64,000 nt of DNA from Chloroflexota bacterium (GTDB lineage Bacteria; Chloroflexota; Anaerolineae; Aggregatilineales; Phototrophicaceae), in assembly GCA_038522085.1 (NCBI GenBank), contig JBCBKJ010000008.1:23371-87370 (forward strand), written 5' to 3'. This document shows positions 2,091 through 15,560 of the stretch, one piece after another. Position numbers and translations under genes: made by a program. Below the pieces are notes generated by a model. The model worked only from the letters and a program-made list of their open reading frames with translations, did not search any database and was not told the origin of the DNA. How positions within the stretch are numbered: the stretch's first letter is position 1; each line of letters starts with the position of its first letter.

Positions 2091-3770
2091 ATGACAATGA
2101 CAGATAACAGCAATAAGAATGATTCGATTGAAGTCCGTTTAGAGCCTTGGATAGACCGTGCTGAATATATTATCGGGCTGACCATTATTATTATGGCGTG
2201 GAGCGCCGGCTGGGTTGATTTGTTCGCGTTCGAGAGCTTCTCAACGCAGGTATTCGGGCGCTACTCGTATTCATTATTTGCCTTCCTCGTTGTCTTCACA
2301 TTGATGTTTGGGTTTTGGTTATGGCTCATTATTTCAATTAAGGCATTAGATGGGCTACGAAGTTTCCTCGCATTTATGCAACGCTCTCCCCTGTTAGTGC
2401 TAGTGGTGTACATCGGTGTTTTTGGCATCCTGTATTCCATGACGATTGTAAAATACTGGTCGAACTTCACACTCATGCAGGGCATGATACTTACGATTAT
2501 GCTTGTATTCACGGTATTTCTGTTATTCACAAATATGGGTGAAGCACAAATATGGCGTAAGGTTATATGGGGCATTTTAGGCGTGTTCCTGCTTATTGAA
2601 GGCGGAATGCACGCGCTGGCATCACTAGGGACATTACCAGTAGAAAACACGACAGGCATGTATCAGTCCTATGGGCGTGTATACACAACAGGCGAACAGT
2701 CTGTGTATGCTACAACGAATCGCTATGGCTGGTATTATCCTGAGTTTGTCATAGACGATGAAAATTACAACATTGTCCTGAATGGTGATACCTTCATACG
2801 GGGCTTGGAAGTCGGCTATGATGACTTATTGGGTACGCAATTACAAGCACAATTTGAGGGTGACGAAACACAAATCATGCCCATGGGTCAGCCAGGTTTT
2901 GGGGCAAATACTTACCTGAGTACAGAATTTTATGGTTTCATCTGGGAAACGATGCAAGCTGATGAGATGGTAATTTTTGTGCATCTGGCAAATGATTTTC
3001 AGGTTGAGGAAGGGTCGCTAGGTGAGCGTCCTTCTTATGATATAAGAGATGATGGTATCACGATACTGCATCCTGACGATGATATTTTCCAGCATGTGAT
3101 TCATCACGTTATATTTGAAGGGCATCAACCGCTCATATTAATTGAGGTTATCATGAGTCACTCGTTCGTTGTGACGATGATTGAAGATGCGATTGCCAGT
3201 ACGAGACCGGACTTAGCTCCTTATGAATTGCACGCCCCCGTAAATGATTGGGAGCGTGAGCGTGTACCGCAGTATACGGTTGCTATGCCAATTGAATCAC
3301 GCACCGAGGATATGCCTTTCGGTACAGGCACTTTCTTGTTTGAGGTGGATGGTAGCGAGCGTGCAGATGAAAGCTATAAAATCTTGTTTGACCAAATAGC
3401 GATTTTGCGGGCAAGGCTAGAGGAACAAGGGATTTCAATACGTGTCGTGACGATTCCATTTTTCCCAGAAGCCTTCTATGAAACGCAATCAGGTACGAAT
3501 TGGGGTACAGAACTAGATGCCACTTACGATATTTTGTTACCAGAAGTACGCCTGACTGAGTATGCTAATGATGCTGGTATTCCGATTCTGGCGATGGGTG
3601 AATACATGTTTGAGACAGGTATGGATGTGAGTGATATTCAAGCCCTGTTCTTTGAAAATGGTAGTGGTGCATTCACCCCAGCCGGACATGCTTATTTTGC
3701 TGAGGCAGTATTTGGCTGTTTCTATGCAGAGATAACATCCGAAGCGACTGCTTGCTATTCAGACGATTGA
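2091..3770 (+). CDS. Polytopic membrane protein of unknown function with a large C-terminal soluble domain; first gene of the NRPS operon
   Basis: 559 aa. About 5-6 predicted TM helices in the first ~190 aa, then a ~370-aa non-membrane domain with His-rich patches (HVIHHVIFEGHQP) and a C-terminal segment with weak SGNH/DltD-like resemblance (NGDTF...PAGHAYFAEAV). Its TGA stop overlaps the ATG of the next gene (ATGA at 3768-3772). Confidence 0.6.
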   Translation: MTMTDNSNKNDSIEVRLEPWIDRAEYIIGLTIIIMAWSAGWVDLFAFESFSTQVFGRYSYSLFAFLVVFTLMFGFWLWLIISIKALDGLRSFLAFMQRSPLLVLVVYIGVFGILYSMTIVKYWSNFTLMQGMILTIMLVFTVFLLFTNMGEAQIWRKVIWGILGVFLLIEGGMHALASLGTLPVENTTGMYQSYGRVYTTGEQSVYATTNRYGWYYPEFVIDDENYNIVLNGDTFIRGLEVGYDDLLGTQLQAQFEGDETQIMPMGQPGFGANTYLSTEFYGFIWETMQADEMVIFVHLANDFQVEEGSLGERPSYDIRDDGITILHPDDDIFQHVIHHVIFEGHQPLILIEVIMSHSFVVTMIEDAIASTRPDLAPYELHAPVNDWERERVPQYTVAMPIESRTEDMPFGTGTFLFEVDGSERADESYKILFDQIAILRARLEEQGISIRVVTIPFFPEAFYETQSGTNWGTELDATYDILLPEVRLTEYANDAGIPILAMGEYMFETGMDVSDIQALFFENGSGAFTPAGHAYFAEAVFGCFYAEITSEATACYSDD

Positions 3771-4933
3771 TGAGTGCGCCGATGATGAATTTGCATTTTA
3801 CGGATGAGCAACAAGCCTTATGGGATAATATTGTTGCATTTGTTGGTACATCGCTGGATTTAGAAAACACGGTTGAAGCCGATAAACAAGGTGTTTTCAG
3901 CCACGAGAATTGGCGAGCGATTGCACAAAAAGGCATTCTTGGCTACTCTTTTGAAACTGCCTACGGTGGCACAGATTATGATATGGTCACGTCGATGGTG
4001 GCAACCGAAGCCTTGGGCTATGCGTGCCACGATAACGGTTTGCTACTCGCGGTCAACGGACAGATGTGGTCAGTACAATCGACATTGAGTCAATTTGCAA
4101 ATGATGAGCAAAAAGAACGCTATCTCAAACCACTCATTGAAGGCACAAAATTTGGCGCACACGGAGTAACAGAACCAGATTATGGGTCGCATGTTTTTGG
4201 GATGCAAACTCATGCTGAAAAAGTCAATGGCGGCTATGTGCTGAATGGCAAAAAAGCCTATGTTGGGCTTGCGCCAATAGCGGATGTAATTCTTGTTTAC
4301 GCGACGACTAATCCTGATTTAGGGTCATGGGGTATCACTGCATTTATAGTGGATGGTGACAGTGAAGGCATTCAAGCCAGTGCGCCAGCAGAAACAATGG
4401 GACTACGTACAACCGTCTTGGGCAGCATCATGTTTGAGAATGTCTTCGTGCCAGAAGAGAATATTTTAGGCAAAGTCGGTGCAGGTGCGAGCATATTCAA
4501 CAAGAGTGTCGAGCGCGAACGGTGTCTCGGCTTTGGTAGCCACGTTGGAGCGATGCGTCGGCAATTAGAGGCGACAATTGCCTATGCAAAAGGACGTAAA
4601 CAAGGCGACCAACCAATCAGCAAGTATCAAGCAGTATCACACAAAATTGCCGATATGCGCGTGCGTTTGGAGACATCACGCTTATTGCTGTATCAGTGTG
4701 CATCGCTGATAGATACAAATCAGCCGATTACTATGGCATCCGCGATAGCCAAATTGACTATCAGCGAAAATTTTGTTGCGAATAGTATGAACGCTTTGCG
4801 GATACACGGTGCGTATGGCTATCTCTCGGAAAGCGAAGTCGAACGGGATTTACGCGATTCGCTGGGTGGTATTATTTACGTCGGCACATCGGATATTCAA
4901 CGAAACATCATTGCAGGTCTACTGGAGTTATAA
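3770..4933 (+). CDS. Acyl-CoA dehydrogenase family protein; likely acyl/aminoacyl-S-carrier-protein dehydrogenase of the NRPS cluster
   Basis: ACAD fold motifs (GVTEPDYGSHVFGMQT..., C-terminal IYVGTSDIQRNIIAG). ORF track starts at a TTG at 3752; the first ATG at 3770 overlaps the upstream stop (translational coupling), so that start is used here. The stop TAA lies 2 nt before the next ATG. Confidence 0.85.
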   Translation: MSAPMMNLHFTDEQQALWDNIVAFVGTSLDLENTVEADKQGVFSHENWRAIAQKGILGYSFETAYGGTDYDMVTSMVATEALGYACHDNGLLLAVNGQMWSVQSTLSQFANDEQKERYLKPLIEGTKFGAHGVTEPDYGSHVFGMQTHAEKVNGGYVLNGKKAYVGLAPIADVILVYATTNPDLGSWGITAFIVDGDSEGIQASAPAETMGLRTTVLGSIMFENVFVPEENILGKVGAGASIFNKSVERERCLGFGSHVGAMRRQLEATIAYAKGRKQGDQPISKYQAVSHKIADMRVRLETSRLLLYQCASLIDTNQPITMASAIAKLTISENFVANSMNALRIHGAYGYLSESEVERDLRDSLGGIIYVGTSDIQRNIIAGLLEL

Positions 4934-4935
4934 AT

Positions 4936-6528
4936 ATGGAATTTTTGCTACACAAAGGCATGGACGTAACCGCAGAGCTTTTCCCAGATAAGCCTGTGAT
5001 GCGTTATTTAGACACGCAGTTGACCTATTCAGAGCTATCACAACGTAGCAATCAACTTGCAAATTTCTTGGAAGAACGTGGCTCACAACGTCGTGACCGC
5101 CTCGGCATTTTTCTCAATAAGAGCCTCGAAACATCTATCGCCGTATATGGCATTATGAAATCCGGCGGGGCGTTTATTCCGCTTGACCCCCAATCACCAA
5201 AATCACGCTTGCTGGATATTATCCGCAAGACAGGCATGAAGTGTGTGATTAGCCAGCCGGATAAGAAGAAAATCCTTGCGCAGGTTGCAGAAGAAGAGTC
5301 GCCGCTGGAATACGTCATCGGTATTGATACAGATGATGATATTGGCGTGCCGACCTACTCATGGGATGATGTCGCGCAATTTCCTGATAATACGATGCCT
5401 GATTTGCATTTGATTCAAGATGACCTCGCTTATATTTTGTTCACGTCAGGGTCTACTGGCGCACCCAAAGGTATGATGCACACACATGCAACAGGCATGA
5501 GTTATGTGCATATGTCTACTGATTTGTACGATGTGCGTCCTGATGATGTGTTAGGCAATCATTCGCCCCTACATTTTGATATGTCTACCTTCGAGTATCT
5601 AACGGGTCCTAATATCGGGACAACGACGATAGTTGTGCCAGAATCATACACGCTGTTCCCTGCCAATTTAACGCAGTTGATGCAAGATGAGCGTATGACA
5701 TTCTGGTACAGTGTGCCATTTGCGCTAATTCAGATTGTATTGCGTGGCGTACTAGAAAAACGTGATTTGTCGAGCTTCCGCTGGATTATGTACGGTGGCG
5801 AACCCTTCCCACCGAATTATTTAGCCGAGTTGATGAAGCATCTACCCAATGCACAAATCAGCAATGTATATGGTCCAGCCGAGACGAACCAAGTCAGCTA
5901 TTATACGATTCCTGACCCTGACACATGGGTTGACCCCGAAGCGAATATGCCAATCGGGACATTTGTACCGAATCTTGAGGGCTTGGTACTAGACGACGAT
6001 GATTCGATTGTTGAAGACGGTGAAGTTGGCGAGTTAGTCGTTCGCACACCACGCATGACCAAAGGCTATTGGGGACGTCCCGATTTGAATGCACGGGTTT
6101 TCTTCCGGCGCGAAATTATGCCTGATTTTGAGGAAGTATACTATCGCACTGGCGACCTAGTAAAATTGCGTGATGATGGTCTGTACGATTTCTTGGGTCG
6201 CAAAGACCATCAAGTGAAAGTGCGCGGGTATCGTGTTGAATTGCTAGAAGTTGAAAATGCGATGGCAAGCCACGATGCCGTTGAAGAAGGTGCAGCGTAT
6301 GCACTCAAAAATGACGATGGTAGCGATTATATCGAAGTTGCTGTGATTGTCGCTAAAGAAGCTACGCTGACAGTAGATGAGTTAATTGCACACATGAATG
6401 ACCGTCTGCCCCATTACGCTGTGCCTAGCAAGGTGAAGTTCATGGATAGCTTCCCGCGCACCGGCTCGGATAAAGTAGACCGCCGAGGTTTACAAGCAAT
6501 GGCAATGGAAGAAAAGAACAATTCGTAA
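4936..6528 (+). CDS. Stand-alone adenylation (AMP-binding) enzyme; starter-unit activating enzyme
   Basis: Core motifs LAYILFTSGSTGAPKG (A3), YRTGDLVKL (A8), GRKDHQVKVRGYRVELLEVE (A9/A10 region). 530 aa, typical A-domain size. Start ATG 2 nt after the ACAD stop. Confidence 0.9.
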   Translation: MEFLLHKGMDVTAELFPDKPVMRYLDTQLTYSELSQRSNQLANFLEERGSQRRDRLGIFLNKSLETSIAVYGIMKSGGAFIPLDPQSPKSRLLDIIRKTGMKCVISQPDKKKILAQVAEEESPLEYVIGIDTDDDIGVPTYSWDDVAQFPDNTMPDLHLIQDDLAYILFTSGSTGAPKGMMHTHATGMSYVHMSTDLYDVRPDDVLGNHSPLHFDMSTFEYLTGPNIGTTTIVVPESYTLFPANLTQLMQDERMTFWYSVPFALIQIVLRGVLEKRDLSSFRWIMYGGEPFPPNYLAELMKHLPNAQISNVYGPAETNQVSYYTIPDPDTWVDPEANMPIGTFVPNLEGLVLDDDDSIVEDGEVGELVVRTPRMTKGYWGRPDLNARVFFRREIMPDFEEVYYRTGDLVKLRDDGLYDFLGRKDHQVKVRGYRVELLEVENAMASHDAVEEGAAYALKNDDGSDYIEVAVIVAKEATLTVDELIAHMNDRLPHYAVPSKVKFMDSFPRTGSDKVDRRGLQAMAMEEKNNS

Positions 6529-6559
6529 GCACATTTAGCAATACAGAGGAAAAACAACT

Positions 6560-6802
6560 GTGGAAGCACAAGCAAAGCTGAAACAATTCATCGAAGACGA
6601 ATTGCTCATTGGGCGCGATGTTGACCTTGAATATGATGACAATTTGCTCATTAGTGGCTTGGTCAACTCATTGGCGATTATGCGCTTGGTGAGTTTTGCA
6701 GAAGAACTTTACGAAGTAGAGATACCAGCCGAAGAAATCACTATCGAGAACTTCATCAGCATTAGTGCGATGAACACCTATCTGCAAACGCTCAAAAACT
6801 AA
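6560..6802 (+). CDS. Small acyl/peptidyl carrier protein (phosphopantetheine-binding)
   Basis: 80 aa, acidic, four-helix pattern with the putative Ppant serine in ISGLVNSLAIMRLV (GxxSL-like). GTG start preceded by an AGAGGA RBS. Located between the A enzyme and the NRPS. Confidence 0.75.
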   Translation: MEAQAKLKQFIEDELLIGRDVDLEYDDNLLISGLVNSLAIMRLVSFAEELYEVEIPAEEITIENFISISAMNTYLQTLKN

Positions 6803-6813
6803 ACCATACCCCT

Positions 6814-9800
6814 ATGACTAGCTCAATTCCATACGACACAAGCAATCTGACCAATGCACAGCAACTTATGTGGATTGGTCAGCAGTTGCAACCTGATGTA
6901 CCGCTTTACAATATGATGCAGACCTTTATCATACATGGCAATATAGATGTTGATGTCTTTACACAAGCGTTTGAAACCTTGGTCGCACAGTCAGAGAACA
7001 TGCGCCTATCTATCGAAGTCATAAATGACATTCCGATAGGACGTACCGATAGCACGAGCAAAAACGTCGTAGCGTTTTATGACTTTACCCAAGAAAGCGA
7101 CCCGCAAAGCCATTTTGACAACTGGTTGGATATACGACGCGGTCTGCGCTTTGATTTATCAGGTCAACTATATGATTGTGCTTTGATAAAGCTAGGTGAT
7201 GCACACTTTGTATGGTACTTGGCAATGCACCATATCATCACAGACGCAACGGCTTTTAAGCTGATATTTGAGCAAGTCAGTGATTATTACCTACGCCTCA
7301 AAGAGGGTGAATCGCTTAACTTAGCAGGCGAGGCATTACCACAGCATGCCGACTACAAAACGTATGAACAACTAGTTATCGAGAGCAAATCTCATGCAAA
7401 AGCGCGAGCATACTGGCAACAGCAGTTAGCGCATGAAGTCGAGCCAATTCGCTTTTATGCTCCTCAAGATGCCACTGATAAAACAGCATCTGTGCGCGTC
7501 AATGTACCGCTTGCTGATACCACGTGTGAAGCACTCGTAAACTACATTGAGAATGCACCTATCCGCAGTTTCAGCAAAGATTTGATAACCGCAAATGTAT
7601 TTGCTAGTTTGTTATTTTCGTATTTATATCGCATCAGTGGGCATAATAACCTGCGTTTGGGTATGCCATTAGCAAATCGAAGCACACCACAGTTTACACA
7701 GACGATAGGCGCGTTCATTGAAGTGTTATCACTGACATTAGATATTGCTGATGATGATAGCTTTGAAGATGTATTGCGCAAAGTCAACAAGGTAAATCTG
7801 AAAACACTCCAGCATTTATTGCCAGCCGTGAGTAGTGCTGAACACACGCATGCTTATGATGTGGTGATGAATTTCATCCCCTTGCATTTTAGTGATTTCG
7901 CGGAAATGCCAACTGAGGTTGCATGGGTACATTGCGGGCATGGTGACGCCAATCATAAACTCAATGTGCAGATTTATGATATGAATAACACGGGGCATTA
8001 TCAATTTTTCTTCGATTTCAACACGGATATATTCAATGCAGATGACCGTGCGCGTGCAATGACACATTTTGAAGCTGTCATTGAACAATGTATCGCTTCG
8101 CCACAAATCCCGCTATCAGACATTGATTTACTGACATCCGCCGAAAAAGAGGCTTTCTTAGGCGCTTTCAATGCGACAGATACACCTTATCAAGCAGATG
8201 CAACAATTGTTGACCTATTTGAAGCACAAGTTGCAAAAACACCGACTGCTATTACTGTCGTTGATAGCGAACGGCAACTCACCTACGCTGAATTGAACGG
8301 CAAAGCAAATGCTCTAGCACATGAGTTACAGTCGGTTGGTATTCGTACAGAGACATTTGTACCTGTTTGTATGCACCATAGCATTGACCTCGTAGTGGCT
8401 CTGTGGGGCATTCTAAAAGCAGGCGGCGTCTATGTTCCGCTTGACCCACAATATCCGACAGAACGTATGCAATATATTCTGGATGATATAGGTGATGTGC
8501 CGCTGATTATCACCGATGCCGAGCTTGAGGAGCAATTCACTGACATTGGCACAAAAACACGTATTGTTGATGCCGATAGTGTATCACTGCTAGATGACTT
8601 CACACATGATGTAACCCCTCAATCACTGGCTTATGTAATTTACACATCTGGGTCTACAGGCAATCCAAAAGGCGTGTTAGTAGAACATGATGGGCTAAGT
8701 AATTATGTTCAATGGGCAAGCAAACATTATGTACCAGATACTGCCGCTACATTTGCGCTGTACTCGTCGTTGGCGTTTGATTTGACTGTTACCTCTATCT
8801 ACGTGCCTTTGGTGACGGGGGGTAGTATTCGTGTGTATTACGATGCTGAAAACACAGGCACAGTCATTCGGGATATTTTCATCGACGCCGCCGTTGATGT
8901 TGTGAAGCTGACACCATCACATTTAGAACTCGTGCGCGATTTAGATTTATCCGCTACACGCATCAAACGTTTGATTGTAGGTGGGGAAGATTTCAAAGTA
9001 TCGCTGGCAAGGGCAATACATGATACTAGTGCCGGAAATATCGTACTTTTCAACGAGTATGGTCCAACTGAGGCGACAGTTGCTTGCATGTTGCACCAGT
9101 TCGATGCAAAAGGTGATACACAGGAATCCGTGCCAATTGGGACACCTGCTGACAATATGCGCGTTTATGTGCTGGACAAGCATCTGAAACCTGTGCCAAC
9201 GGGCATAGTCGGCGAAATGTATTTGTCGGGCGTAGGGGTAGCGCGTGCATATCTCAATCGTGACGTATTGAGCGCAGAACGCTTTTTGCCTGACCCCTTC
9301 GACAGCACACGACACATGTATAAATCTGGTGATTTGGCACGCTGGTTGCCGGATGGCACACTCACATTTCTGGGGCGTGCAGATAGACAGGTGAAATTAC
9401 GCGGGTATCGCATTGAACTCGGTGAAATTGAAGGACAACTCCATTCTATTTCAGGCGTGGAATCCGCGACGGTGGTAGTGCGGACTGAGCAACTTATTGG
9501 CTACTACGTGGCTGATGAGGCTATCACGGCTGAGATAGTAACATCGTATTTGAGTGAGCGCCTCCCCTCTTATATGATACCGACGCATGTGGTGCGCTTG
9601 GATGCAATGCCTCTGACAATCAACGGGAAAGTTGATTACGATGCCCTGCCAGATATTGTTTCAGGGAATGTAGATGGACATTCTGCTTACGTTGCACCCG
9701 AAAATGATGTGCAAGCAACGGTAGCGCATATCTGGCAAACAATTTTGCAGATTGAGCAAATTGGCATTCACAGTAATTTCTTCGATATTGGTGGACACTC

Positions 9801-9993
9801 CTTACCAGCGATTCGCGTTACCGGACGCATCAATGCTTATTTTGATATTGATATGCCACTAAAAACCTTCTTCACCAATCCAACCATTGCCGGTCAAGCA
9901 GATGCTATTGAACGCATTGTAAAAACAGAAATTGACGCGCTCAGTGATGACGAGGTTTTTCGTTTGCTGGAGGCAATAGACTATGGCGGATAA
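6814..9993 (+). CDS. Non-ribosomal peptide synthetase module 1 (C-A-T)
   Basis: Condensation His motif HHIITDATAF (HHxxxD). A domain: LAYVIYTSGSTGNPKG, YKSGDLARW, GRADRQVKLRGYRIELGEIE. Thiolation: FFDIGGHSLPAIRV. No E, MT or TE domain seen. Confidence 0.95.
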   Translation: MTSSIPYDTSNLTNAQQLMWIGQQLQPDVPLYNMMQTFIIHGNIDVDVFTQAFETLVAQSENMRLSIEVINDIPIGRTDSTSKNVVAFYDFTQESDPQSHFDNWLDIRRGLRFDLSGQLYDCALIKLGDAHFVWYLAMHHIITDATAFKLIFEQVSDYYLRLKEGESLNLAGEALPQHADYKTYEQLVIESKSHAKARAYWQQQLAHEVEPIRFYAPQDATDKTASVRVNVPLADTTCEALVNYIENAPIRSFSKDLITANVFASLLFSYLYRISGHNNLRLGMPLANRSTPQFTQTIGAFIEVLSLTLDIADDDSFEDVLRKVNKVNLKTLQHLLPAVSSAEHTHAYDVVMNFIPLHFSDFAEMPTEVAWVHCGHGDANHKLNVQIYDMNNTGHYQFFFDFNTDIFNADDRARAMTHFEAVIEQCIASPQIPLSDIDLLTSAEKEAFLGAFNATDTPYQADATIVDLFEAQVAKTPTAITVVDSERQLTYAELNGKANALAHELQSVGIRTETFVPVCMHHSIDLVVALWGILKAGGVYVPLDPQYPTERMQYILDDIGDVPLIITDAELEEQFTDIGTKTRIVDADSVSLLDDFTHDVTPQSLAYVIYTSGSTGNPKGVLVEHDGLSNYVQWASKHYVPDTAATFALYSSLAFDLTVTSIYVPLVTGGSIRVYYDAENTGTVIRDIFIDAAVDVVKLTPSHLELVRDLDLSATRIKRLIVGGEDFKVSLARAIHDTSAGNIVLFNEYGPTEATVACMLHQFDAKGDTQESVPIGTPADNMRVYVLDKHLKPVPTGIVGEMYLSGVGVARAYLNRDVLSAERFLPDPFDSTRHMYKSGDLARWLPDGTLTFLGRADRQVKLRGYRIELGEIEGQLHSISGVESATVVVRTEQLIGYYVADEAITAEIVTSYLSERLPSYMIPTHVVRLDAMPLTINGKVDYDALPDIVSGNVDGHSAYVAPENDVQATVAHIWQTILQIEQIGIHSNFFDIGGHSLPAIRVTGRINAYFDIDMPLKTFFTNPTIAGQADAIERIVKTEIDALSDDEVFRLLEAIDYGG

Positions 9994-12900
9994 CACGCAG
10001 ACCATTACCATCGAGGAGGCACGGCGCAAACTACTTGAATATCGGTTACAGGGTAAATCTCTCAATCAAGCCTCTGCTCTCAAGGCAATTCCACCTGTAC
10101 CAGACGATGTAGACCCGCCAACTACCTACGGTCAGCAAGGGATGTGGCTGATACAGCAATCTCAGCCGGATGCTGTACCATACAATTCAGCGAACATTAT
10201 GCGCCTTGAAGGCATGCTGTATACAGATGTATTCAAGCGTGCTGTACAGATAGTCATTGAGCGCCACGCTGTCTTTCGGACGAATTTCGTGCTGGCAGGT
10301 GACGCGATTGTGCAAAGCGTCCGTGATAGTATCGAGGATATTGTTTCTGTAGAGACGATTACCCCCGCGCAACGTGACGATGCCATAGCACGGTATATCG
10401 ACACGCCGTTTGATTTGGCGAATGATGTGTTACTACGTGTCGGCATTTTACGAGAAAGCGAACAAGCCTATACGATTGTCATTTGTGCGCATCACATTAT
10501 TGTGGATAATTGGTCGCTGACTGTATTGTTATGGCAAGAGATTAGCGATAGCTACCAAACCTTGATAACCAACCAACCGATGGATTTGCCAACTATCGAA
10601 GCACAGTATGCTGATTATACCTATTGGCAACGACAAAAAGAATCTACAGAGGCATATCAGAAACAACTTGCGTACTGGCAAAATCAGCTTGCAGATGCCC
10701 CTCCTCTGTTGCAGTTACCCACAGATAGACCACGCCCAGCGAAACAACAATACGATGGCGAAGTCGTTTACATGTATTTGGATGAGGCACTATCTGCACA
10801 GATACACACACTAAGCCGTGATGCCAAAAGCACGCTGTTTGTCACTTTGCTGAGTGCGTACTATGTGTTGCTCAGTCGCTACACCGCACAAGATGATATT
10901 AGCGTGGGTACATCGGTAGATATGCGCACACATCCACAACTAGAGAATACGATTGGCTATTTCTTGAATACGGTGGTTCTGCGCGAAAATATAAAGCCTG
11001 AGCTATCTTTTGGTTCATTACTAACAAAAGTGCGCGATACAACACTGTCTGCCTTTGCGAATCAAAATGTGGAATTTGAGCAAGTCGTCGAAAAATTAGG
11101 TATCGGACGCAATAGTGGGTTCAATCCGCTATTTCAGACGATGTTTGTGATGTGGAACGAAACTTCCTCTGCGCCAAAGATACCGACCTTCACTATGACA
11201 CCCCAACAAGTACATCCTAGTGCATCGAAGTTTGATATATCTTTTTATGCACAGCCGGAGCGCGATGGGCGCATTTTGGTAGCCATTGAATATGCGACCC
11301 ACTTATTCGATAAGGCAACCATAAAACGCATGCAGGGGCATTATAAGACGATTTTGCGCTCTGTGGTCGCTGAACCAGAGACAGCTATTAAAGATATTCG
11401 CTTGTTGACACATGCAGAAAATCAACTGCTGTTAGAGACATGGACAGACACAGCCCAAGATTATCCACGCGAAAAACTTGTACATGACCTTATTGCTGAA
11501 AACCCAGCCGACGCTATCGCAGTATGGGACGAAAGCGGTCAATTGGCATACGGGGAGTTGAACGCACGCGCCAATCAGATTGCGCATCACTTAGTTACAT
11601 TGGGTATCACAGCTGGTACACCCATTGGCATTTGTCTCGAACGTAGCCATGAGATGCTAATTAGCATTGTAGCGATACTAAAAGCGGGGGGTGCCTATGT
11701 ACCCATTGACCCTTCTTATCCGCAGGAACGCATCGAAACCATTGTTGCAGATGCAGGTATCAACATCATTTTGACGCAATCGCACTTGGAAACAACATTG
11801 GCTGACCGCGCACAACATACTATCACGATTGATGATAGCGAGGCGTTCGCTGATTACCCGACAACGCTACCTGATACAGAGGCAACACCCGACACGCTAG
11901 CGTATATCATTTACACAAGTGGTTCGACAGGCAAGCCTAAAGGGGTACGCATCACACATCGTAACCTCGTGCATTCAACAACAGCGCGTGAAAGTGTGTA
12001 TCCACTTCAAGTAGAGCGATTTTTGTTGTTGTCGTCATTTGCCTTTGATAGTTCGCTGGTTGGCATCTTCTGGACATTATGCGGAGGTGGAACGCTCTGT
12101 TTGCCACCACAAGATGCTGAAAAAGATGTCACACGGATTGCCGAATTGATTGCACAGTACAGCATTACGCATTTGTTGGCATTGCCGTCTTTGTATCAAA
12201 TCTTGCTTGAATTTGCCGATGATAATCAACTCGCGTCGTTGAATACCGTTATGGTTGCTGGCGAAGCCTGCCCGATTGCACTGGTGCGGACACATTACGA
12301 GCTTTTGCCGGATGCCACGCTCTGGAACGAATATGGTCCGACAGAAGGCACAGTTTGGTCAAGTGTGTGGGAAGTGCCAGCCGACACCGACAAAATGCTT
12401 ATCGGAAAAGCCATTCCCAATATGCAAACCTATATTTTGGATAGCCAGCAAGTGCCTGTGCCTGTCGGGGTATATGGGGAGGTGTACATCGGCGGTGAAG
12501 GTATCGCACAGGGCTATCACGAGCGTCCCGATTTGACTGCCGAGCGTTTTATTGGCAATCCCTTTGGTACAGGACGTTTATATCGTACAGGGGATATTGC
12601 ACGGTATCTTACAGATGGCAATATTGAATTTGCTGGACGCGATGACAATCAGGTGAAAATTAGCGGATACCGTATTGAGCTAGGTGAAGTGGAGAATGCG
12701 TTCTCACGCTTAGATGCTGTTCAACATGTTGTGGTCGTCGTGCGTGAGATAGCAGGTCAAAAACGCTTGGTCGCCTTTGTATCGACGACAGAAACTGCAA
12801 CTAGTGATGATATTCGTCAGCAAGTGCGCCCGACCTTGCCTGCTTACATGATTCCCACACATATTGAAATTCTTGACGCCTTGCCACGTAATCCGAATGG

Positions 12901-14050
12901 TAAACTTGACCGCAAAGCATTAGAAACATATCCGATTGCACGTGCTGATAACGCACCTGTATCCGCAAAAGCAACCAACGATGTTGAAAAGCAACTACTG
13001 ACTATCTGGCAAGAATTGTTGGGAGCTACTGTGCCGAGTGTCGATGCTGATTTCTTTGAATTAGGGGGCTATTCCCTACTAGCAATTCGGATGTTTGCGC
13101 GCATCAAGCAAGCATTTGATGTGGAGTTACCCATTTCACTGATTATGGAATCACCTACTATTCGCGGTCTGGCAGAGACAATTGCACAAGATGGCATCGG
13201 CGAGAAAACACTTTTCACGCTGGTAGTTGAAGGCGATAAACCGCCGTTGTATTGCTTGCAAGTGAACAAATTTGGCTTGATTCATTACCAGACATTAGCA
13301 CAACAATTGAATGCGAATCGTCCCGTGATTGGCTTGGGTTTGCCAGATGCTCTCGATACGGCGGAAACAACTATCGAGGAAGTTGCCGAACATAATGCAA
13401 GAACGATACTTGCCCATCAAACCGAAGCGCCATTTTACATTGCTGGACTGTCTGTTGCTGGGCTGGTCGCTTATGAAACAGCACGCAAATTAAAGTCAGA
13501 CGGTCATGAGGTATATGTCATCTTATTTGACACACAAGGACCCGATTATCCAACACGCATTGCGCCAATGGATGCAATCAGGAAACGTGCTGGCATCATG
13601 TGGCATCAATTAACGACGTGGGATGGAACAGCACGCGATGAACTCATCGGCTATTGGCGCTGGCTATTGGCATATCGACTGGGGTATCAGGTACAGAAAC
13701 GCAGTAATTGGGTACGCGCAAAACTCGGTTTGCCTGTGGTGACATCAGATGACCAAGAATTTAGGAATGCCATTGATAGCGATGCTATCCAAGCACAGAT
13801 AGATGCCTATTTTGCAGGCAATCGCGCTGATGACATACCGATTTTGCTCTATCGCAGTCATTTGCAACCCATCACCAGCGAACCAGAGTGGGCGCTTGGC
13901 TGGGATAAATTTGTGCCAGAAAATCATATTGATGTGCATCATGTGGGGGCGCCACATACAGATTTACTGAAATCGCAGTATATCAATCAAATTGTGACGC
14001 ATTTGCGCGATTGGCTTACTGAGAAAGACAGCTCACACAAGCAAAAATAA
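9983..14050 (+). CDS. Non-ribosomal peptide synthetase module 2 with terminal thioesterase (C-A-T-TE)
   Basis: Start overlaps the module-1 stop. C: HHIIVDNWS. A: LAYIIYTSGSTGKPKG, YRTGDIARY, GRDDNQVKISGYRIELGEVE. T: FFELGGYSLLAIRM. C-terminal alpha/beta-hydrolase TE with GLSVAGLVAYETARKL (GxSxG). Confidence 0.95.
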   Translation: MADNTQTITIEEARRKLLEYRLQGKSLNQASALKAIPPVPDDVDPPTTYGQQGMWLIQQSQPDAVPYNSANIMRLEGMLYTDVFKRAVQIVIERHAVFRTNFVLAGDAIVQSVRDSIEDIVSVETITPAQRDDAIARYIDTPFDLANDVLLRVGILRESEQAYTIVICAHHIIVDNWSLTVLLWQEISDSYQTLITNQPMDLPTIEAQYADYTYWQRQKESTEAYQKQLAYWQNQLADAPPLLQLPTDRPRPAKQQYDGEVVYMYLDEALSAQIHTLSRDAKSTLFVTLLSAYYVLLSRYTAQDDISVGTSVDMRTHPQLENTIGYFLNTVVLRENIKPELSFGSLLTKVRDTTLSAFANQNVEFEQVVEKLGIGRNSGFNPLFQTMFVMWNETSSAPKIPTFTMTPQQVHPSASKFDISFYAQPERDGRILVAIEYATHLFDKATIKRMQGHYKTILRSVVAEPETAIKDIRLLTHAENQLLLETWTDTAQDYPREKLVHDLIAENPADAIAVWDESGQLAYGELNARANQIAHHLVTLGITAGTPIGICLERSHEMLISIVAILKAGGAYVPIDPSYPQERIETIVADAGINIILTQSHLETTLADRAQHTITIDDSEAFADYPTTLPDTEATPDTLAYIIYTSGSTGKPKGVRITHRNLVHSTTARESVYPLQVERFLLLSSFAFDSSLVGIFWTLCGGGTLCLPPQDAEKDVTRIAELIAQYSITHLLALPSLYQILLEFADDNQLASLNTVMVAGEACPIALVRTHYELLPDATLWNEYGPTEGTVWSSVWEVPADTDKMLIGKAIPNMQTYILDSQQVPVPVGVYGEVYIGGEGIAQGYHERPDLTAERFIGNPFGTGRLYRTGDIARYLTDGNIEFAGRDDNQVKISGYRIELGEVENAFSRLDAVQHVVVVVREIAGQKRLVAFVSTTETATSDDIRQQVRPTLPAYMIPTHIEILDALPRNPNGKLDRKALETYPIARADNAPVSAKATNDVEKQLLTIWQELLGATVPSVDADFFELGGYSLLAIRMFARIKQAFDVELPISLIMESPTIRGLAETIAQDGIGEKTLFTLVVEGDKPPLYCLQVNKFGLIHYQTLAQQLNANRPVIGLGLPDALDTAETTIEEVAEHNARTILAHQTEAPFYIAGLSVAGLVAYETARKLKSDGHEVYVILFDTQGPDYPTRIAPMDAIRKRAGIMWHQLTTWDGTARDELIGYWRWLLAYRLGYQVQKRSNWVRAKLGLPVVTSDDQEFRNAIDSDAIQAQIDAYFAGNRADDIPILLYRSHLQPITSEPEWALGWDKFVPENHIDVHHVGAPHTDLLKSQYINQIVTHLRDWLTEKDSSHKQK

Positions 14051-14797
14051 GCGCAATGGACGTTGTTTGCCATGATAGGCAATCGCACCCATAAATTGCT
14101 CGTTTATGTCGATATGATGCAAGTGCCATTTCAGCCTGTGCATATTGCTGAGACGCGGGTCAATGCGTGTGACGCGTGCTGGCTGGTATGATTTCAGCGT
14201 CACATCAAAAGCATCCAACGGGACACTTAATCCGCGTCCATCTGCTTTAATAAAAGACTCTTTTCGTGTCCAGCAGCGATAAAATGCACCGACTTGTTCA
14301 GCAGACGAGAGGCTAAAAAGTGCAGTCTGCTCTGCTGGTGAAAAATGATGTTTCGCAACTGTCATGAGGTCGGGCAGAGGCTTTATAGCTTCAATATCCA
14401 CACCTATATCTTGCTTACATATTGCAATTAAAACGCGTTCTTCTGAGTGCGATAAATTGAAGAAAATACGCTCTGTATCGAGATAAGGTTTATTATATTC
14501 ACTATACGAAAACGAAAGCATATTCGGTTCACGCTGGAGATAGTTACCAAGCAAGTATCGTAAAATACCCCTGCGGACAGTACCGCGTGCGCGTAGTTGG
14601 GGGGTGTAATAGCGTTGAACACGCTCTTTTTCTCCTACACTCAGCATAGGATACAAGCTATCAACAACACTTTTTGGCTGGTCGTGTGTAAATTGCCAGA
14701 TGTGAATGCTGTCATCAAGCGGCGGTCTGGTATGTACAGATTGCCAATATTCTGTATCAGTATCTGTAATGGGTTGCCATACAAGGGGCAATTGCAT
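14033..14797 (-). CDS. Sfp-type 4'-phosphopantetheinyl transferase
   Basis: PPTase motifs FNLSHSEERVLIAI...IGVDIEAI and WTRKESFIKADGRGL (W/KEA motif). ORF extends to 14950. The start is placed at the internal Met (MQLPLVWQ, 14797), which has an AGGTGA RBS and avoids overlapping the divergent lipoprotein gene. The 3' end overlaps the NRPS stop by 18 nt (convergent). Confidence 0.8.
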   Translation of the reverse strand: MQLPLVWQPITDTDTEYWQSVHTRPPLDDSIHIWQFTHDQPKSVVDSLYPMLSVGEKERVQRYYTPQLRARGTVRRGILRYLLGNYLQREPNMLSFSYSEYNKPYLDTERIFFNLSHSEERVLIAICKQDIGVDIEAIKPLPDLMTVAKHHFSPAEQTALFSLSSAEQVGAFYRCWTRKESFIKADGRGLSVPLDAFDVTLKSYQPARVTRIDPRLSNMHRLKWHLHHIDINEQFMGAIAYHGKQRPLRLFLLV

Positions 14798-14897
14798 CGT
14801 GTTATCACCTACTAAACGAAATGAGCTATCCACTTCATATGTTTTGTACATCATGTTAGCATATGCCAGCGCAAGTAAGATAAGGAGTATGTAATAC

Positions 14898-15560
14898 GTG
14901 CAACGCTGGATATGGATGTGCCTATTCATTTTATGTGCATGTGGTGGCACAGGCGAGGATATTATCGAAATTGATTATGAAGGCGACCTCGTTGCGTATG
15001 CAACAGAAGCATCGCAAATACGCGAGGATATTGTTATCAGCCGTACTGATATTGCGTCTACAGTGGAAGCGGGCAATGCTCAAACATCACAATTTGAGCG
15101 TTACAATGACTTGTTACGCAGTACGGTTGTTGTTGCTATTCCGCCAACATCCGATGCGCGTATTGTAGCGAATGATACGATTGGCGCGCTCCCCGTTGAA
15201 GTATATGATTTGTCTGATGGCGAGATGCGCTTTGTGCAGATTGGTCCGGCTGGAGAAATTAATGATGAAAATTGCTTCATCGCCAAACAACAGTTTTTCA
15301 GAACGGATTCAGTTGCTGTATTCATGACAGCAGTCGCGCTTAATTTGCGTGCAGGTACAACAGTTAGTGCTGAGTGGCGCTATGGTGGGGAGCTTGTATA
15401 TTCTAATTCATGGGTCGCACCACAATCCGTACCCTATCAGTGTGTTTCCTTAACAATGCGCCCATCTGATGCTGAGTTTGCGACAGGGAATTGGACGGTC
15501 ACGCTGTTTGTAAATGGCAACCCTGACGAACCCAAGTCCTTCACCATTTTCAGCAACTAG
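14898..15560 (+). CDS. Hypothetical lipoprotein
   Basis: 220 aa. N-terminal MQRWIWMCLFILCACGGTG, a lipobox-like L-C-A-C after a hydrophobic stretch. No recognisable catalytic motifs. Confidence 0.55.
   Translation: MQRWIWMCLFILCACGGTGEDIIEIDYEGDLVAYATEASQIREDIVISRTDIASTVEAGNAQTSQFERYNDLLRSTVVVAIPPTSDARIVANDTIGALPVEVYDLSDGEMRFVQIGPAGEINDENCFIAKQQFFRTDSVAVFMTAVALNLRAGTTVSAEWRYGGELVYSNSWVAPQSVPYQCVSLTMRPSDAEFATGNWTVTLFVNGNPDEPKSFTIFSN

What the first reader, a model, noticed from the sequence alone, without database searches (positions are those of the whole stretch)
2091..14950. Compact NRPS cluster with an ACAD / stand-alone A enzyme / carrier-protein starter cassette: predicted N-acyl (pyrrolyl- or unsaturated-acyl-) dipeptide
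Six genes are translationally coupled (ATGA and TAA-nn-ATG overlaps) in the order membrane protein, acyl-CoA-dehydrogenase-like, adenylation enzyme, 80-aa carrier protein, C-A-T, C-A-T-TE, with a convergent Sfp-type PPTase. Two known systems use a contiguous ACAD + A + carrier trio to build a dehydrogenated starter on a carrier protein. One is the pyrrolyl-S-PCP type made from proline (PltE/PltF/PltL, AnaB/AnaC/AnaD, Bmp3/Bmp4, RedW/RedM). The other is the LipA/LipB/LipD-type cassette for delta-cis-3 or epoxy fatty-acyl starters of friulimicin/CDA-like lipopeptides. The ACAD-A-ACP order seen here is identical to anaB-anaC-anaD. With only two elongation modules and a TE, the product would be a small dehydro-acyl dipeptide, possibly cyclised. 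The A-domain pocket residues I can read next to the A4 FD motif are D-M-..-F for the stand-alone A, D-L-..-T for module 1 and D-S-..-V for module 2. These do not obviously match the proline code (D-V-Q...), so the starter identity is open. No regulator or classical transporter is encoded in the cluster.
Basis: partly seen in the sequence, partly recalled or inferred. Interest (0 to 1): 0.8.

Follow-up and report, generated by a model that had tools for sequence, protein, structure and literature searches.

The report
Metal-linked NRPS tripeptide gene cluster
An intact seven-gene cluster in a Chloroflexota genome should make a small peptide (an oxidised cyclic imino acid, then asparagine, then histidine); it belongs to a large, apparently unstudied family found in more than ten bacterial phyla, nearly always beside nickel/cobalt-type transporter genes, so it may encode a new kind of metal-binding molecule.

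Summary
Window 2091-14950 holds a membrane protein, an acyl-CoA-dehydrogenase-like flavoenzyme, a stand-alone adenylation (A) enzyme, an 80-aa carrier protein, C-A-T, C-A-T-TE and a convergent Sfp-type PPTase. All are intact and tightly packed.

The starter trio is of the prolyl-carrier-protein type. The flavoenzyme's best matches are AnaB, Bmp3 and PigA, and the A enzyme's best match is PltF. It is not the fatty-acyl LipA/B/D type. The A pocket (DMFYMGVQVK) differs from the experimentally proline-specific stand-alone code (DLFYLALVCK in AnaC) at every substrate-contact position. Most relatives carry a lysine-cyclodeaminase-like gene, so pipecolate rivals proline as the starter.

The two modules read as Asn (DLTKIGEVAK) and His (DSVLMAEVWK).

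The cluster is a minimal member of a family with 478 hits across at least ten phyla, all sharing the same three codes. In 52 of 63 informative loci a HupE/UreJ-type permease gene lies nearby.

A CbiM/CbiQO ECF transporter, a Fur-family regulator, HupE and a CDF pump lie immediately upstream, partly outside the window.

My best reading is a Ni/Co-binding X-Asn-His peptide. That function is inferred. I found no characterised member.

The parts
1..356 (-). 5' part of the CbiM/NikM-type ECF S-component gene (N-terminus MHIPDG). The rest of the gene, plus the CbiQ-CbiO fusion, Fur-family regulator, HupE/UreJ and a 526-aa CDF pump, lie beyond the window start.
   Evidence: Exact contigs L001 and L088. 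NCBIfam: CbiM 290 bits (cutoff 205); CbiQ 141 bits (cutoff 112); CDF 218 bits (cutoff 82); Fur family below every equivalog cutoff. Sequences.
387..1067 (-). 226-aa secreted protein with a C-terminal membrane anchor and a weak NikL-like match. Probable accessory subunit of the Ni/Co ECF transporter.
   Evidence: NCBIfam NF058648 E 9e-7, 29 bits, below cutoff 100. Co-occurs with CbiM/CbiQO next to the homologous NRPS clusters in L007 and L011.
1093..1893 (-). 266-aa secreted protein of unknown family (ORF extends to a TTG at 1920). It travels with the ECF transporter genes.
   Evidence: No Pfam or NCBIfam hit. 64-68% identical homologues sit next to CbiM/CbiQO in L007 and L011.
1894..2090 (.). 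Divergent intergenic region between the transporter operon and the NRPS operon. It contains one sigma-70-like site (1983-2011) and a 6-4-6 palindrome ATGTAAATTATTACAT (1958-1973), a weak candidate operator.
   Evidence: The palindrome is unique in the window, but 22 of 100 shuffles give a match, and it is absent from L007 and L011. Not established as functional.
2091..3770 (+). 559-aa membrane protein: N-terminal bundle of about six TM helices plus a C-terminal SGNH/GDSL-fold domain with degenerate catalytic blocks (GDT / GQPGFG / ANDF; the block-V His is Ala here). Function unknown.
3785..4933 (+). FAD-dependent aminoacyl-carrier-protein dehydrogenase of the AnaB/Bmp3/PigA group (alternative starts at 3752, 3770 and 3782).
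   Evidence: 38.8% identical to AnaB and 39.2% to Bmp3. The catalytic Glu of the AnaB/Bmp3 'WER' motif is kept (VERERC), and there is no Glu at the MCAD-E376 position.
4936..6528 (+). Stand-alone amino-acid adenylation enzyme. Specificity code DMFYMGVQVK: a prolyl-type scaffold with an enlarged, more polar pocket.
   Evidence: The best match over the specificity region is PltF (E 1e-27). 37.8% identical to AnaC.
6560..6802 (+). Free-standing 80-aa carrier protein. The phosphopantetheine site is Ser37 (nt 6668-6670).
   Evidence: Motif GLVNSL; the Ser is invariant in 71 homologues. 35% identical to AnaD.
6814..9993 (+). NRPS module 1: C (6841-8157, HHIITD), A (8218-9630, code DLTKIGEVAK = Asn-like), T (9718-9909, GGHS).
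   Evidence: DLTKIGEVGK is an Asn code in PMC12283262. The best solved relatives of this C domain are 7c1h/7c1k (82 bits), with CDA-C1 further down the list.
9983..14050 (+). NRPS module 2 with release domain: C (10124-11434, HHIIVD), A (11495-12904, code DSVLMAEVWK = His-like), T (12992-13183, GGYS), TE (13247-14047, GLSVAG).
   Evidence: DSALIAEVWK is a His / beta-OH-His code in PMC12283262.
14033..14854 (-). Sfp/HetI-type 4'-phosphopantetheinyl transferase (ORF extends to a GTG at 14950), convergent with NRPS2.
   Evidence: Pfam ACPS 6.5e-18. NCBIfam HetI 154 bits, below cutoff 370. Gene call of 273 aa.

Best explanation
The six co-directional genes plus the PPTase form an assembly line for a small N-capped tripeptide.

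Proposed steps:
1. The PPTase primes three carrier sites (inferred).
2. The stand-alone A enzyme loads a cyclic imino acid onto Ser37 of the free carrier protein. The substrate is L-pipecolate or L-proline; the pocket is a prolyl-type pocket widened at the contact residues.
3. The AnaB/Bmp3-like flavoenzyme dehydrogenates the tethered ring. The product would be a cyclic imine/enamine or, after further oxidation, a pyrrole- or pyridine-2-carbonyl.
4. C1 joins the starter to Asn, C2 adds His, and the TE releases X-Asn-His.

Domain content and residue predictions are shown by sequence. The chemistry of each step is inferred.

Function (inferred from gene neighbourhood): the peptide is a ligand for Ni(II)/Co(II), possibly also Cu(II). 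It would work with the adjacent CbiM/CbiQO ECF importer, HupE/UreJ permease and CDF efflux pump, under a Fur-family regulator.

A heterocycle N, two backbone amide N atoms and the imidazole of a His in position 3 would offer the same 5-5-6 four-nitrogen chelate as ATCUN peptides such as Gly-Gly-His.
For: Assembly line:
- Domains and core motifs are intact.
- The carrier Ser is invariant in 71 homologues.
- The ACAD is closest to prolyl-carrier-protein dehydrogenases and keeps their catalytic Glu (role of the Glu in PMC10849742).
- The A enzyme is closest to PltF.
- Codes are DLTKIGEVAK (Asn) and DSVLMAEVWK (His), matched to the literature codes DLTKIGEVGK and DSALIAEVWK.

Starter identity:
- AnaC (DLFYLALVCK), PltF (DLLYLALVCK) and PigI (DLFYIAWVCK) share the stand-alone Pro code L(L/F)YLALVC. 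Pro contacts positions 236, 301 and 330 (PMC3874040).
- Here these positions are M, G and Q, with L322 replaced by V.
- The 'OCD' gene of relatives scores 300-314 bits to lysine cyclodeaminase and 128-135 bits to ornithine cyclodeaminase.
- All 38 loci that carry this gene have Gly301. The four loci with Ala301 lack it.

Family:
- 478 relatives in one-genome-per-species GTDB contigs, spanning at least ten phylum-level groups.
- In 81 non-duplicate loci, the other A domains that could be read are Asn-like (55 loci) and His-like (45 loci), with five exceptions.

Metal link:
- A HupE/UreJ-type gene is present in 52 of 63 loci that have at least 4 kb of upstream sequence. The median distance is 2.3 kb, and 39 are on the same strand as the A gene (Pfam HupE_UreJ_2 at 150-163 bits).
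- The CbiM/CbiQO/p226/p266/CDF block adjoins the NRPS genes in three Chloroflexota loci in two different arrangements: L001 and L007 upstream and divergent, L011 downstream.
- A Fur-family gene lies inside that block here.
Against: - No metal binding has been shown, and none of the usual chelator-building genes (catechol, hydroxamate, beta-OH-Asp/His) is present.
- HupE and ECF CbiM/NikM systems are known as importers of free ions, not of metallophore complexes. No substrate-binding-protein ABC importer, TonB receptor or obvious exporter was seen in the sequence examined for this cluster (about 10 kb upstream and 50 kb downstream).
- Most relatives carry a methyltransferase in the His module and a PP-loop insertion in the Asn A domain. 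If the methylation is on the alpha-N, it would remove one of the four nitrogen donors, so the ATCUN-like geometry cannot be general for the family.
- The ECF/Fur/CDF block is seen only in a few Chloroflexota loci.
- No lysine cyclodeaminase gene lies within about 10 kb upstream or 50 kb downstream here.
- The ACAD is below the PigA and RedW equivalog cutoffs.
- No riboswitch and no convincing operator tie expression to a metal.
Confidence: 0.5

Rival explanations
1. Same assembly line and product, but the peptide is not a metal ligand. It could be an antibiotic, a signal or a protease-inhibitor-like molecule. The conserved HupE/UreJ-type membrane protein would then serve as exporter or immunity protein, and the ECF/Fur/CDF genes in this genome would be neighbours by chance.
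For: - No chelator-type tailoring genes are present.
- HupE-family proteins are not known to move peptides or complexes, so their role here is open.
- The ECF block accompanies only a few Chloroflexota loci.
- Relatives methylate and otherwise modify the peptide. The relatives' insertion resembles the one in the antibiotic albicidin's AlbIV.
- An ABC exporter-type gene flanks HupE in L058.
Against: - A Ni/Co-family permease is kept next to the cluster in 52 of 63 loci across many phyla.
- The ECF + CDF block re-associates with the cluster in two different arrangements.
- A His residue is strictly conserved in the product.
Confidence: 0.3
2. One reading: the starter is L-proline, oxidised by four electrons to pyrrole-2-carbonyl-S-carrier protein as in PltE/F/L, giving pyrrolyl-Asn-His.
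For: - Best NCBIfam hits are PigA and RedW. Bmp3 and PltF are among the best solved structures.
- No cyclodeaminase gene lies in or near this cluster, so a primary-metabolism substrate such as proline is the simplest supply.
- Lysine cyclodeaminases can also act on ornithine (my recollection, not checked here).
Against: - The code differs from the stand-alone Pro consensus at all three contact positions, and this difference is conserved family-wide.
- Relatives carry a lysine-cyclodeaminase-like enzyme, not an OCD-like one.
- Family ACADs have a median 48% identity to AnaB, a two-electron oxidase, against 40% to Bmp3. Pyrrole formation is therefore not implied.
Confidence: 0.35
3. The trio is a lipoinitiation cassette (LipA/LipB/LipD or MbtM/L/N type) that makes an unsaturated fatty-acyl starter.
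For: The ACAD + adenylating enzyme + ACP gene content is superficially the same. C1's solved relatives include the acyl-accepting starter C domain CDA-C1.
Against: - The A enzyme has Asp235 and Lys517 and passes TIGR01733 for amino-acid adenylation (348 bits, cutoff 317).
- MbtN scores 51 bits and FadE-type models are far below cutoff.
- The best structural relatives are prolyl systems.
Confidence: 0.02
4. The A enzyme, the carrier protein and the SGNH-fold membrane protein act as a Dlt-like system that aminoacylates a cell-envelope polymer, independently of the NRPS.
For: - The A enzyme scores 255 bits to the DltA subfamily model, below cutoff 476.
Against: - The membrane protein occurs in only 18 loci, whereas A/CP/ACAD always travel with C1 and the two NRPS modules.
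- There is no DltB/MBOAT gene.
- The SGNH nucleophile is Thr and the block-V His is missing here.
Confidence: 0.05

Closest known systems
AnaB/AnaC/AnaD, the anatoxin-a starter cassette of cyanobacteria
   Same: - Identical gene order: ACAD, stand-alone A, carrier (L087).
- AnaB is the best solved relative of the ACAD (297 bits).
- Family ACADs have a median 48% identity to AnaB.
- The catalytic Glu is shared.
   Different: - AnaC has the canonical Pro code DLFYLALVCK, against DMFYMGVQVK here.
- Identities to the window proteins are only 38% (AnaB, AnaC) and 35% (AnaD).
- The ana cassette feeds a PKS, whereas this one feeds two NRPS modules.
Thiotemplated pyrrole cassettes: PltF/PltL/PltE, RedM/RedO/RedW, PigI/PigG/PigA, Bmp4/Bmp1/Bmp3
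   Same: The logic is the same: imino acid loaded on a free carrier protein, then oxidised by an ACAD-fold flavoenzyme. PltF is the best solved relative of the A enzyme. The PigA and RedW models are the best NCBIfam hits for the ACAD.
   Different: - Scores are below both equivalog cutoffs (341 vs 500; 320 vs 650).
- The pocket residues differ at positions 236, 301, 322 and 330.
- Relatives pair the cassette with a lysine-cyclodeaminase-like gene.
- The extent of oxidation is unknown.
Chalkophomycin (Streptomyces Cu(II) metallophore)
   Same: It is a Cu(II)-binding natural product containing an N-hydroxypyrrole that is made from carrier-protein-bound proline by ACAD-fold enzymes (PMC10849742).
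   Different: It has a different scaffold (N-hydroxypyrrole plus diazeniumdiolate), two ACAD-like enzymes, an actinomycete host, and no HupE/ECF context reported in the passages I read.
Opine metallophores staphylopine, pseudopaline and yersinopine (Cnt systems)
   Same: They are small His-containing ligands for Ni/Co/Zn, encoded next to dedicated metal transport genes. This rests on my general knowledge and on the reviews listed.
   Different: They are made by nicotianamine-synthase-like and opine-dehydrogenase enzymes, not by an NRPS. They are imported as complexes by an ABC system with a binding protein.
ATCUN (amino-terminal Cu/Ni) peptides such as Gly-Gly-His or Asp-Ala-His
   Same: His sits at position 3 of a tripeptide with a nitrogen donor at the N-terminus. 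That arrangement would allow the same four-nitrogen square-planar chelate. This is inference from the predicted sequence.
   Different: ATCUN is a ribosomal or synthetic motif with a free alpha-amine. Here the N-terminal donor would be a ring nitrogen, and binding is untested. Methylated relatives may not be able to bind this way.
Albicidin AlbIV: Asn A domain with a 342-aa AANH-superfamily insertion giving beta-cyanoalanine
   Same: The Asn code is the same (DLTKIGEVGK). Most relatives of this cluster have an NRPS1 about 345 aa longer, with QueC/ThiI-like PP-loop hits inside the A domain.
   Different: The window's module 1 (1059 aa) has no such insertion, so plain Asn is expected here.

Membership tests
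Modular NRPS (C-A-T, C-A-T-TE) | Condensation HHxxxD, A-domain core motifs, carrier GGxS, and a thioesterase domain | tested here: met
   - Pfam hits E 1e-14 to 6e-102.
- Condensation motifs HHIITD and HHIIVD.
- A-domain motifs TSGSTGxPKG, NEYGPTE and NGK(V/L)D.
- Carrier motifs GGHS and GGYS.
- The TE has GLSVAG rather than the canonical GxSxG.
Thiotemplated prolyl-to-pyrrole/pyrroline cassette (Plt/Red/Pig/Bmp/Ana) | Stand-alone A enzyme with the proline code D-L-(L/F)-Y-L-A-L-V-C-K | tested here: not met
   The code here is DMFYMGVQVK, and the family consensus is DM(F/L)YLGVQCK. It differs at positions 236, 301, 322 and 330 (and at 331 in the window). Reference codes were read from AnaC, PltF and PigI and from PMC3874040.
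Thiotemplated prolyl-to-pyrrole/pyrroline cassette (Plt/Red/Pig/Bmp/Ana) | ACAD-fold flavoenzyme of the prolyl-carrier-protein dehydrogenase clade with the helix-G catalytic Glu | tested here: inconclusive
   The best hits are PigA, RedW, AnaB and Bmp3, and the Glu is conserved. Scores are below the equivalog cutoffs (341 vs 500; 320 vs 650).
Thiotemplated prolyl-to-pyrrole/pyrroline cassette (Plt/Red/Pig/Bmp/Ana) | Free-standing carrier protein with a modifiable Ser, adjacent to the A enzyme and the ACAD | tested here: met
   Ser37 lies in GLVNSL and is invariant in 71 homologues. The gene order is the same as anaB-anaC-anaD.
Thiotemplated prolyl-to-pyrrole/pyrroline cassette (Plt/Red/Pig/Bmp/Ana) | Substrate is L-proline and the product is pyrrolyl- or pyrrolinyl-S-carrier protein | not testable with these tools
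   This needs loading and oxidation assays. Indirect evidence (a lysine-cyclodeaminase-like gene in 38 of 63 relatives) points partly away from proline.
Lipoinitiation cassette (LipA/LipB/LipD; MbtM/MbtL/MbtN) | Fatty-acyl-AMP ligase (no alpha-amino-binding Asp235) plus an acyl-ACP dehydrogenase | tested here: not met
   Asp235 and Lys517 are present. TIGR01733 scores 348 bits against a cutoff of 317. MbtN scores 51 bits against a cutoff of 700.
NRP metallophore BGC (as recognised by chelator-biosynthesis rules) | Genes for a known chelating group (catechol, hydroxamate, salicylate, beta-OH-Asp/His, and so on) | tested here: not met
   No such families appear among the Pfam/NCBIfam hits of the cluster or its flanks. 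The genome-mining paper PMC12971057 does not mention pyrrole, proline, nickel or HupE.
NRP metallophore BGC (functional sense) | Co-localised, co-conserved metal transport and regulation genes | tested here: met
   A HupE/UreJ-type gene occurs in 52 of 63 loci. CbiM/CbiQO, a Fur-family gene and a CDF pump are adjacent here.
Ni/Co ECF transporter (CbiMNQO / NikMNQO-NikKL) | M, Q and O components plus an N or K/L accessory subunit | tested here: inconclusive
   - CbiM and CbiQ pass their cutoffs.
- The CbiO half scores 183.5 bits against a cutoff of 211.8 for TIGR01166.
- No CbiN is present.
- p226 is only weakly NikL-like, at 29 bits against a cutoff of 100.
SGNH/GDSL hydrolase | SGNH fold with catalytic Ser (block I), Gly, Asn and His (block V) | tested here: not met

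The most novel reading that the evidence does not exclude
This cluster is the minimal member of a phylum-spanning, uncharacterised family of NRPS-made nickel/cobalt (and perhaps copper) ligands. Their N-terminal donor would be made by oxidation of carrier-protein-bound pipecolate, a thiotemplated pipecolyl dehydrogenation towards a piperideine- or picolinyl-cap that I could not find described. The X-Asn-His core would bind metal in an ATCUN-like four-nitrogen site and hand it to HupE/UreJ or CbiM/NikM importers. If so, it would be the first NRPS 'nickelophore/cobaltophore' class. It would also be a candidate source of the strong, structurally unidentified Ni/Co/Cu-binding ligands reported in seawater (my recollection of the oceanographic literature, not checked here).
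Probability: 0.25. Interest if true: 0.85.

Novelty: new variant of a known kind. Interest (0 to 1): 0.62.

Why it matters
All the individual parts are known kinds: NRPS modules, a prolyl-type starter cassette, and Ni/Co transporters. What is new is how they are combined and how widely that combination is conserved.

- At least 478 species-level genomes in more than ten phyla keep the same three adenylation codes, next to a HupE/UreJ-type permease.
- I found no characterised product for this family.
- Known small-molecule Ni/Co carriers are opine-type and NRPS-independent.
- A conserved His-at-position-3 peptide with an N-heterocyclic cap gives a concrete hypothesis for how many marine and aquatic bacteria handle nickel and cobalt. 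It can be tested by mass spectrometry.
- Cultured carriers exist: Leptolyngbya sp. PCC 7375, Leptolyngbya sp. Heron Island J, Adonisia turfae CCMR0081, Dapis sp. BLCC M126 and Flavilitoribacter nigricans DSM 23189.
- The possible pipecolyl-carrier-protein dehydrogenase would extend the enzymology of AnaB/PltE-type oxidases.

Tried and rejected
- **E. coli genomes.** A megablast of the region found nothing, as expected for a Chloroflexota sequence.
- **Riboswitches.** An Rfam scan at E<=1 of the extended locus and two relatives found no NiCo or cobalamin riboswitch, nor any other RNA. An earlier attempt exceeded the size limit.
- **Operator search.**
  - No inverted repeat of 8 nt or longer lies in the divergent intergenic region.
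  - The 6-4-6 palindrome at 1958-1973 is not significant (22 of 100 shuffles match) and is not conserved in relatives.
- **Literature.** Eight searches found no characterised member.
  - The searches combined metallophore/HupE/nickel, ATCUN/NRPS, the specificity codes, OCD/ACAD/HupE, nickelophore, AnaB/PigA/Bmp3, AnaC and lysine cyclodeaminase/pipecolyl.
  - I suspected leptochelins because Leptothoe/PCC 7375 carries the cluster, but that paper mentions neither pyrrole nor proline.
  - PMC3194866 is not held.
- **Local cyclodeaminase.** None is present in the 64-kb window or in the 10 kb upstream.
- **Azetidine-2-carboxylate as starter.** One literature AZC code, DMQLVSQQVK, shares M236/Q330/V331. 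I did not pursue this: no AZC synthase gene is present, and the pocket is enlarged rather than reduced.
- **Aminomalonyl/hydroxymalonyl-ACP (Zma-type) cassettes.** Considered and rejected, because there is no PKS and the ACAD's best matches are prolyl systems.
- **2-electron versus 4- or 6-electron oxidation.** This could not be decided from sequence.

Full report
**What is there.**

ORF listing and Pfam/NCBIfam scans confirm the reported gene set.

| Window coordinates | Product |
|---|---|
| 2091-3770 | 559-aa protein with no family hit |
| 3785-4933 | ACAD-fold enzyme (earlier in-frame starts at 3752, 3770 and 3782) |
| 4936-6528 | stand-alone A enzyme |
| 6560-6802 | 80-aa carrier protein |
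| 6814-9993 | C-A-T |
| 9983-14050 | C-A-T-TE |
| 14033-14854 (ORF to 14950), minus strand | convergent Sfp/HetI-type PPTase |

- Junctions are short gaps or overlaps.
- Core motifs are present: HHxxxD in both C domains, GGHS and GGYS in the T domains, and an unusual GLSVAG in the TE.
- The small carrier protein misses Pfam. It has GLVNS37L, and that Ser is invariant in 71 homologues.
- The same proteins occur on two independent assemblies of a Chloroflexota MAG (GCA_039815725.1 and a Logan contig).
- The rest of the window, 15-64 kb, is housekeeping, so the PPTase marks the right-hand edge.

**The starter trio.**

- *Flavoenzyme.*
  - Its best NCBIfam models are the prolyl-carrier-protein dehydrogenases PigA (341 bits) and RedW (320 bits). 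Both scores are below their equivalog cutoffs. The next model, acryloyl-CoA reductase, scores 247 bits, and MbtN scores 51 bits.
  - The best solved structures are AnaB (4irn, 297 bits) and 6cxt (264 bits). PMC10849742 identifies 6cxt as Bmp3.
  - It is 38.8% identical to AnaB and 39.2% to Bmp3.
  - It keeps the Glu of the AnaB/Bmp3 'WER' motif and lacks the MCAD-type C-terminal Glu.
- *A enzyme.*
  - It is an amino-acid adenylation enzyme: TIGR01733 is above cutoff, and Asp235 and Lys517 are present.
  - PltF is its best single-domain structural relative. Over the specificity region PltF gives E 1e-27 and PigI gives 4e-18.

**Which imino acid?**

- I aligned the three A domains to GrsA-PheA. 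This gave DMFYMGVQVK, DLTKIGEVAK and DSVLMAEVWK.
- Reference codes:
  - PltF reads DLLYLALVCK and PigI reads DLFYIAWVCK.
  - I recovered a genuine anaB-anaC-anaD locus (L087) by searching with the AnaB sequence, and read AnaC as DLFYLALVCK.
  - PMC3874040 gives the stand-alone proline consensus L(L/F)YLALVC. It states that proline contacts positions 236, 301 and 330, and lists AnaC among enzymes with measured kinetics on L-proline.
- The enzyme here has M, G and Q at those three positions, and V at 322. The scaffold is prolyl-type, but the pocket is larger and more polar.
- In relatives, the gene directly upstream of the ACAD was called OCD_Mu_crystallin. It scores 300-314 bits to lysine cyclodeaminase structures and 128-135 bits to ornithine cyclodeaminase.
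- All 38 loci with that gene have Gly301. The four loci with Ala301 lack it. This correlation is weak, because those four loci are probably related to one another.
- The window cluster has no cyclodeaminase within about 10 kb upstream or 50 kb downstream.
- I therefore rate pipecolate at about 0.5, proline at about 0.35, and something else for the remainder.
- Whether the oxidase stops at the imine/enamine (as AnaB does) or goes on to an aromatic ring cannot be read from sequence.

**The two modules.**

- DLTKIGEVAK is one conservative change from DLTKIGEVGK, an Asn code.
- DSVLMAEVWK is two changes from DSALIAEVWK, a His / beta-hydroxy-His code (PMC12283262).
- The predicted product is X-Asn-His, released by the TE.

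**A large conserved family.**

- The stand-alone A enzyme has thousands of database relatives. The best 120 are 47-61% identical, apart from one 99% identical copy from the same organism.
- A pattern scan of one genome per GTDB species found 478 relatives. The 80 fetched loci come from Chloroflexota, Cyanobacteria, Gamma- and Alphaproteobacteria, Desulfobacterales, Calditrichaeota, Acidobacteriota, Myxococcota, Planctomycetota, Bacteroidota, Verrucomicrobiales and Rhodothermales.
- Gene content of the fetched loci (all 86 fetched loci plus the window, duplicates included):
  - ACAD and carrier protein in 80 each.
  - A C1 homologue in 76.
  - The cyclodeaminase in 44.
  - A HupE/UreJ-type gene in 63.
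- The three codes are almost invariant:
  - Starter: DM(F/L)YLGVQCK.
  - Module 1: DLTK(I/V)GEV, in 55 of 81 non-duplicate loci.
  - Module 2: DSxLxAEVW, in 45 of 81 non-duplicate loci.
  - The shortfalls are mostly truncated contigs. There are only five other codes.
- Most relatives are more elaborate than the window cluster:
  - NRPS1 is about 345 aa longer, with a QueC/ThiI-like PP-loop insertion in the Asn A domain. This parallels albicidin AlbIV, which makes beta-cyanoalanine.
  - The His module carries a methyltransferase of about 260 aa.
- The window cluster and its closest relative L007 lack both features. They are the minimal form.

**Metal context.**

- The window starts inside a CbiM gene. 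The exact contigs L001 and L088 show what lies beyond. Divergent from the NRPS operon, in order:
  - p266;
  - p226 (weakly NikL-like);
  - CbiM (above cutoff, N-terminus MHIPDG);
  - a CbiQ-CbiO fusion;
  - a Fur-family regulator;
  - HupE/UreJ;
  - a 526-aa CDF pump.
- The same ECF + CDF block lies upstream of the NRPS genes in L007 and downstream of them in L011.
- Across phyla, 52 of 63 non-duplicate loci with at least 4 kb upstream carry a HupE/UreJ-type gene. Its median distance from the A gene is 2.3 kb, and it is usually on the same strand. Pfam HupE_UreJ_2 scores about 150-163 bits in L071, L020 and L058.
- In most of the Chloroflexota loci examined in detail, the order is HupE, then the 559-aa protein's homologue, then (cyclodeaminase), ACAD, A, CP.
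- This is the strongest functional clue.

**The first gene.**

- An alignment-based AlphaFold model (pLDDT 80, pTM 0.77) shows about six N-terminal TM helices and a C-terminal SGNH/GDSL-fold domain.
- The catalytic blocks are degenerate: GDT replaces GDS, and the block-V His is Ala in the window protein. H335 and H339 are invariant.
- Its role is unknown. It is not part of the pan-phylum core.

**Interpretation.**

The biosynthetic logic is well supported by sequence.

- The metal-ligand function is an inference from conserved neighbourhood and from the invariant His.
- The ATCUN-like four-nitrogen geometry is a further inference. It fits the unmethylated window product, but it may not hold for methylated relatives.
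- Nothing ties expression to a metal yet. There is no riboswitch and no significant operator.
- Eight literature searches found no characterised member.
- The nearest concept is chalkophomycin, a Cu(II) metallophore with a thiotemplated proline-derived N-hydroxypyrrole.

**Verdict.**

- It is a new variant of a known kind: an NRPS with a prolyl-type starter cassette. It belongs to a large, unexplored family linked to Ni/Co transporters.
- It is a good, testable genome-mining lead rather than a demonstrated novelty.

Noticed in passing
L088 15608-20681 (beyond the window start, just past the CDF gene): A LysW/LysX/LysY/LysZ/LysJ/LysK-type amino-group-carrier operon (Zn_ribbon_LysW, RimK/LysX, semialdehyde dehydrogenase, AA_kinase, Aminotran_3, Peptidase_M20). 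It encodes lysine or ornithine biosynthesis, that is, the precursor of pipecolate or proline, and it lies next to the metal/NRPS region. This may be coincidence.
   Followed up: no
L020 223-5848 and 20519-21493 (Gammaproteobacteria MAG): Directly upstream of this relative's HupE_UreJ_2 / cyclodeaminase / ACAD / A cluster lie ergothioneine/selenoneine-type genes. They are an EgtD-like histidine methyltransferase, an EgtB-like FGE-sulfatase/DinB protein, a glycosyltransferase and a Pyr_redox_2+AIRS (SelD-like) fusion. A Cupin_8/JmjC-like gene follows the NRPS.
   Followed up: no
L003, L004, L071 and most other relatives (e.g. L071 11959-17433, residues about 950-1060): The Asn A domain carries an insertion of about 345 aa with QueC/ThiI-like PP-loop hits. 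This resembles the AANH insertion of albicidin AlbIV, which converts Asn to beta-cyanoalanine. A methyltransferase of about 260 aa sits in or next to the His A domain. Cyanobacterial NRPS1 proteins also have an extra C/E-like domain. None of these features is in the window cluster.
   Followed up: partly
L007 5658-7151; similar genes in L008 and L010: The C-terminal A subdomain, T and TE of the His module are encoded as a separate 498-aa gene, far upstream of the C-A(N-terminal) gene, next to the membrane-protein or HupE gene. This is a split module.
   Followed up: partly
L003 11578-12291 (homologues in L018, L021, L022, L023, L028, L029): A 237-aa membrane protein lies between the A and carrier genes. 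It has weak MsrQ / ferric-reductase-transmembrane similarity (E 8e-7 NCBIfam, 1e-4 Pfam, both below cutoffs). It hints at a redox or metal-reduction partner in some Chloroflexota versions.
   Followed up: no
ACAD homologues across L003-L086 (alignment): In 30 of 78 family flavoenzymes the catalytic Glu of the AnaB/Bmp3 'WER' motif is Asp (LEYDRC). The window enzyme keeps Glu (VERERC). Family members are clearly closer to AnaB (median 48% identity) than to Bmp3 (40%).
   Followed up: partly
window 1958-1973: A perfect 6-4-6 palindrome, ATGTAAATTATTACAT, lies in the divergent promoter region. It is unique in the window, but it is not statistically significant and not conserved in L007 or L011.
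   Followed up: yes
window 14898-15560, 15617-17317 and 17411-19576: Just past the PPTase lie three genes. One is a 220-aa lipoprotein-like ORF with no homologue in the related loci fetched. The other two are large SH3_3-domain proteins, one of them with Peripla_BP_6 and CARDB domains. Their relation to the cluster is unknown.
   Followed up: no
L001 522-2102 (CDF gene): The CDF pump has a C-terminal extension of about 190 aa beyond the usual cytoplasmic domain, and a His-rich N-terminus (GHQHQD...HDH). No family was assigned to the extension.
   Followed up: no
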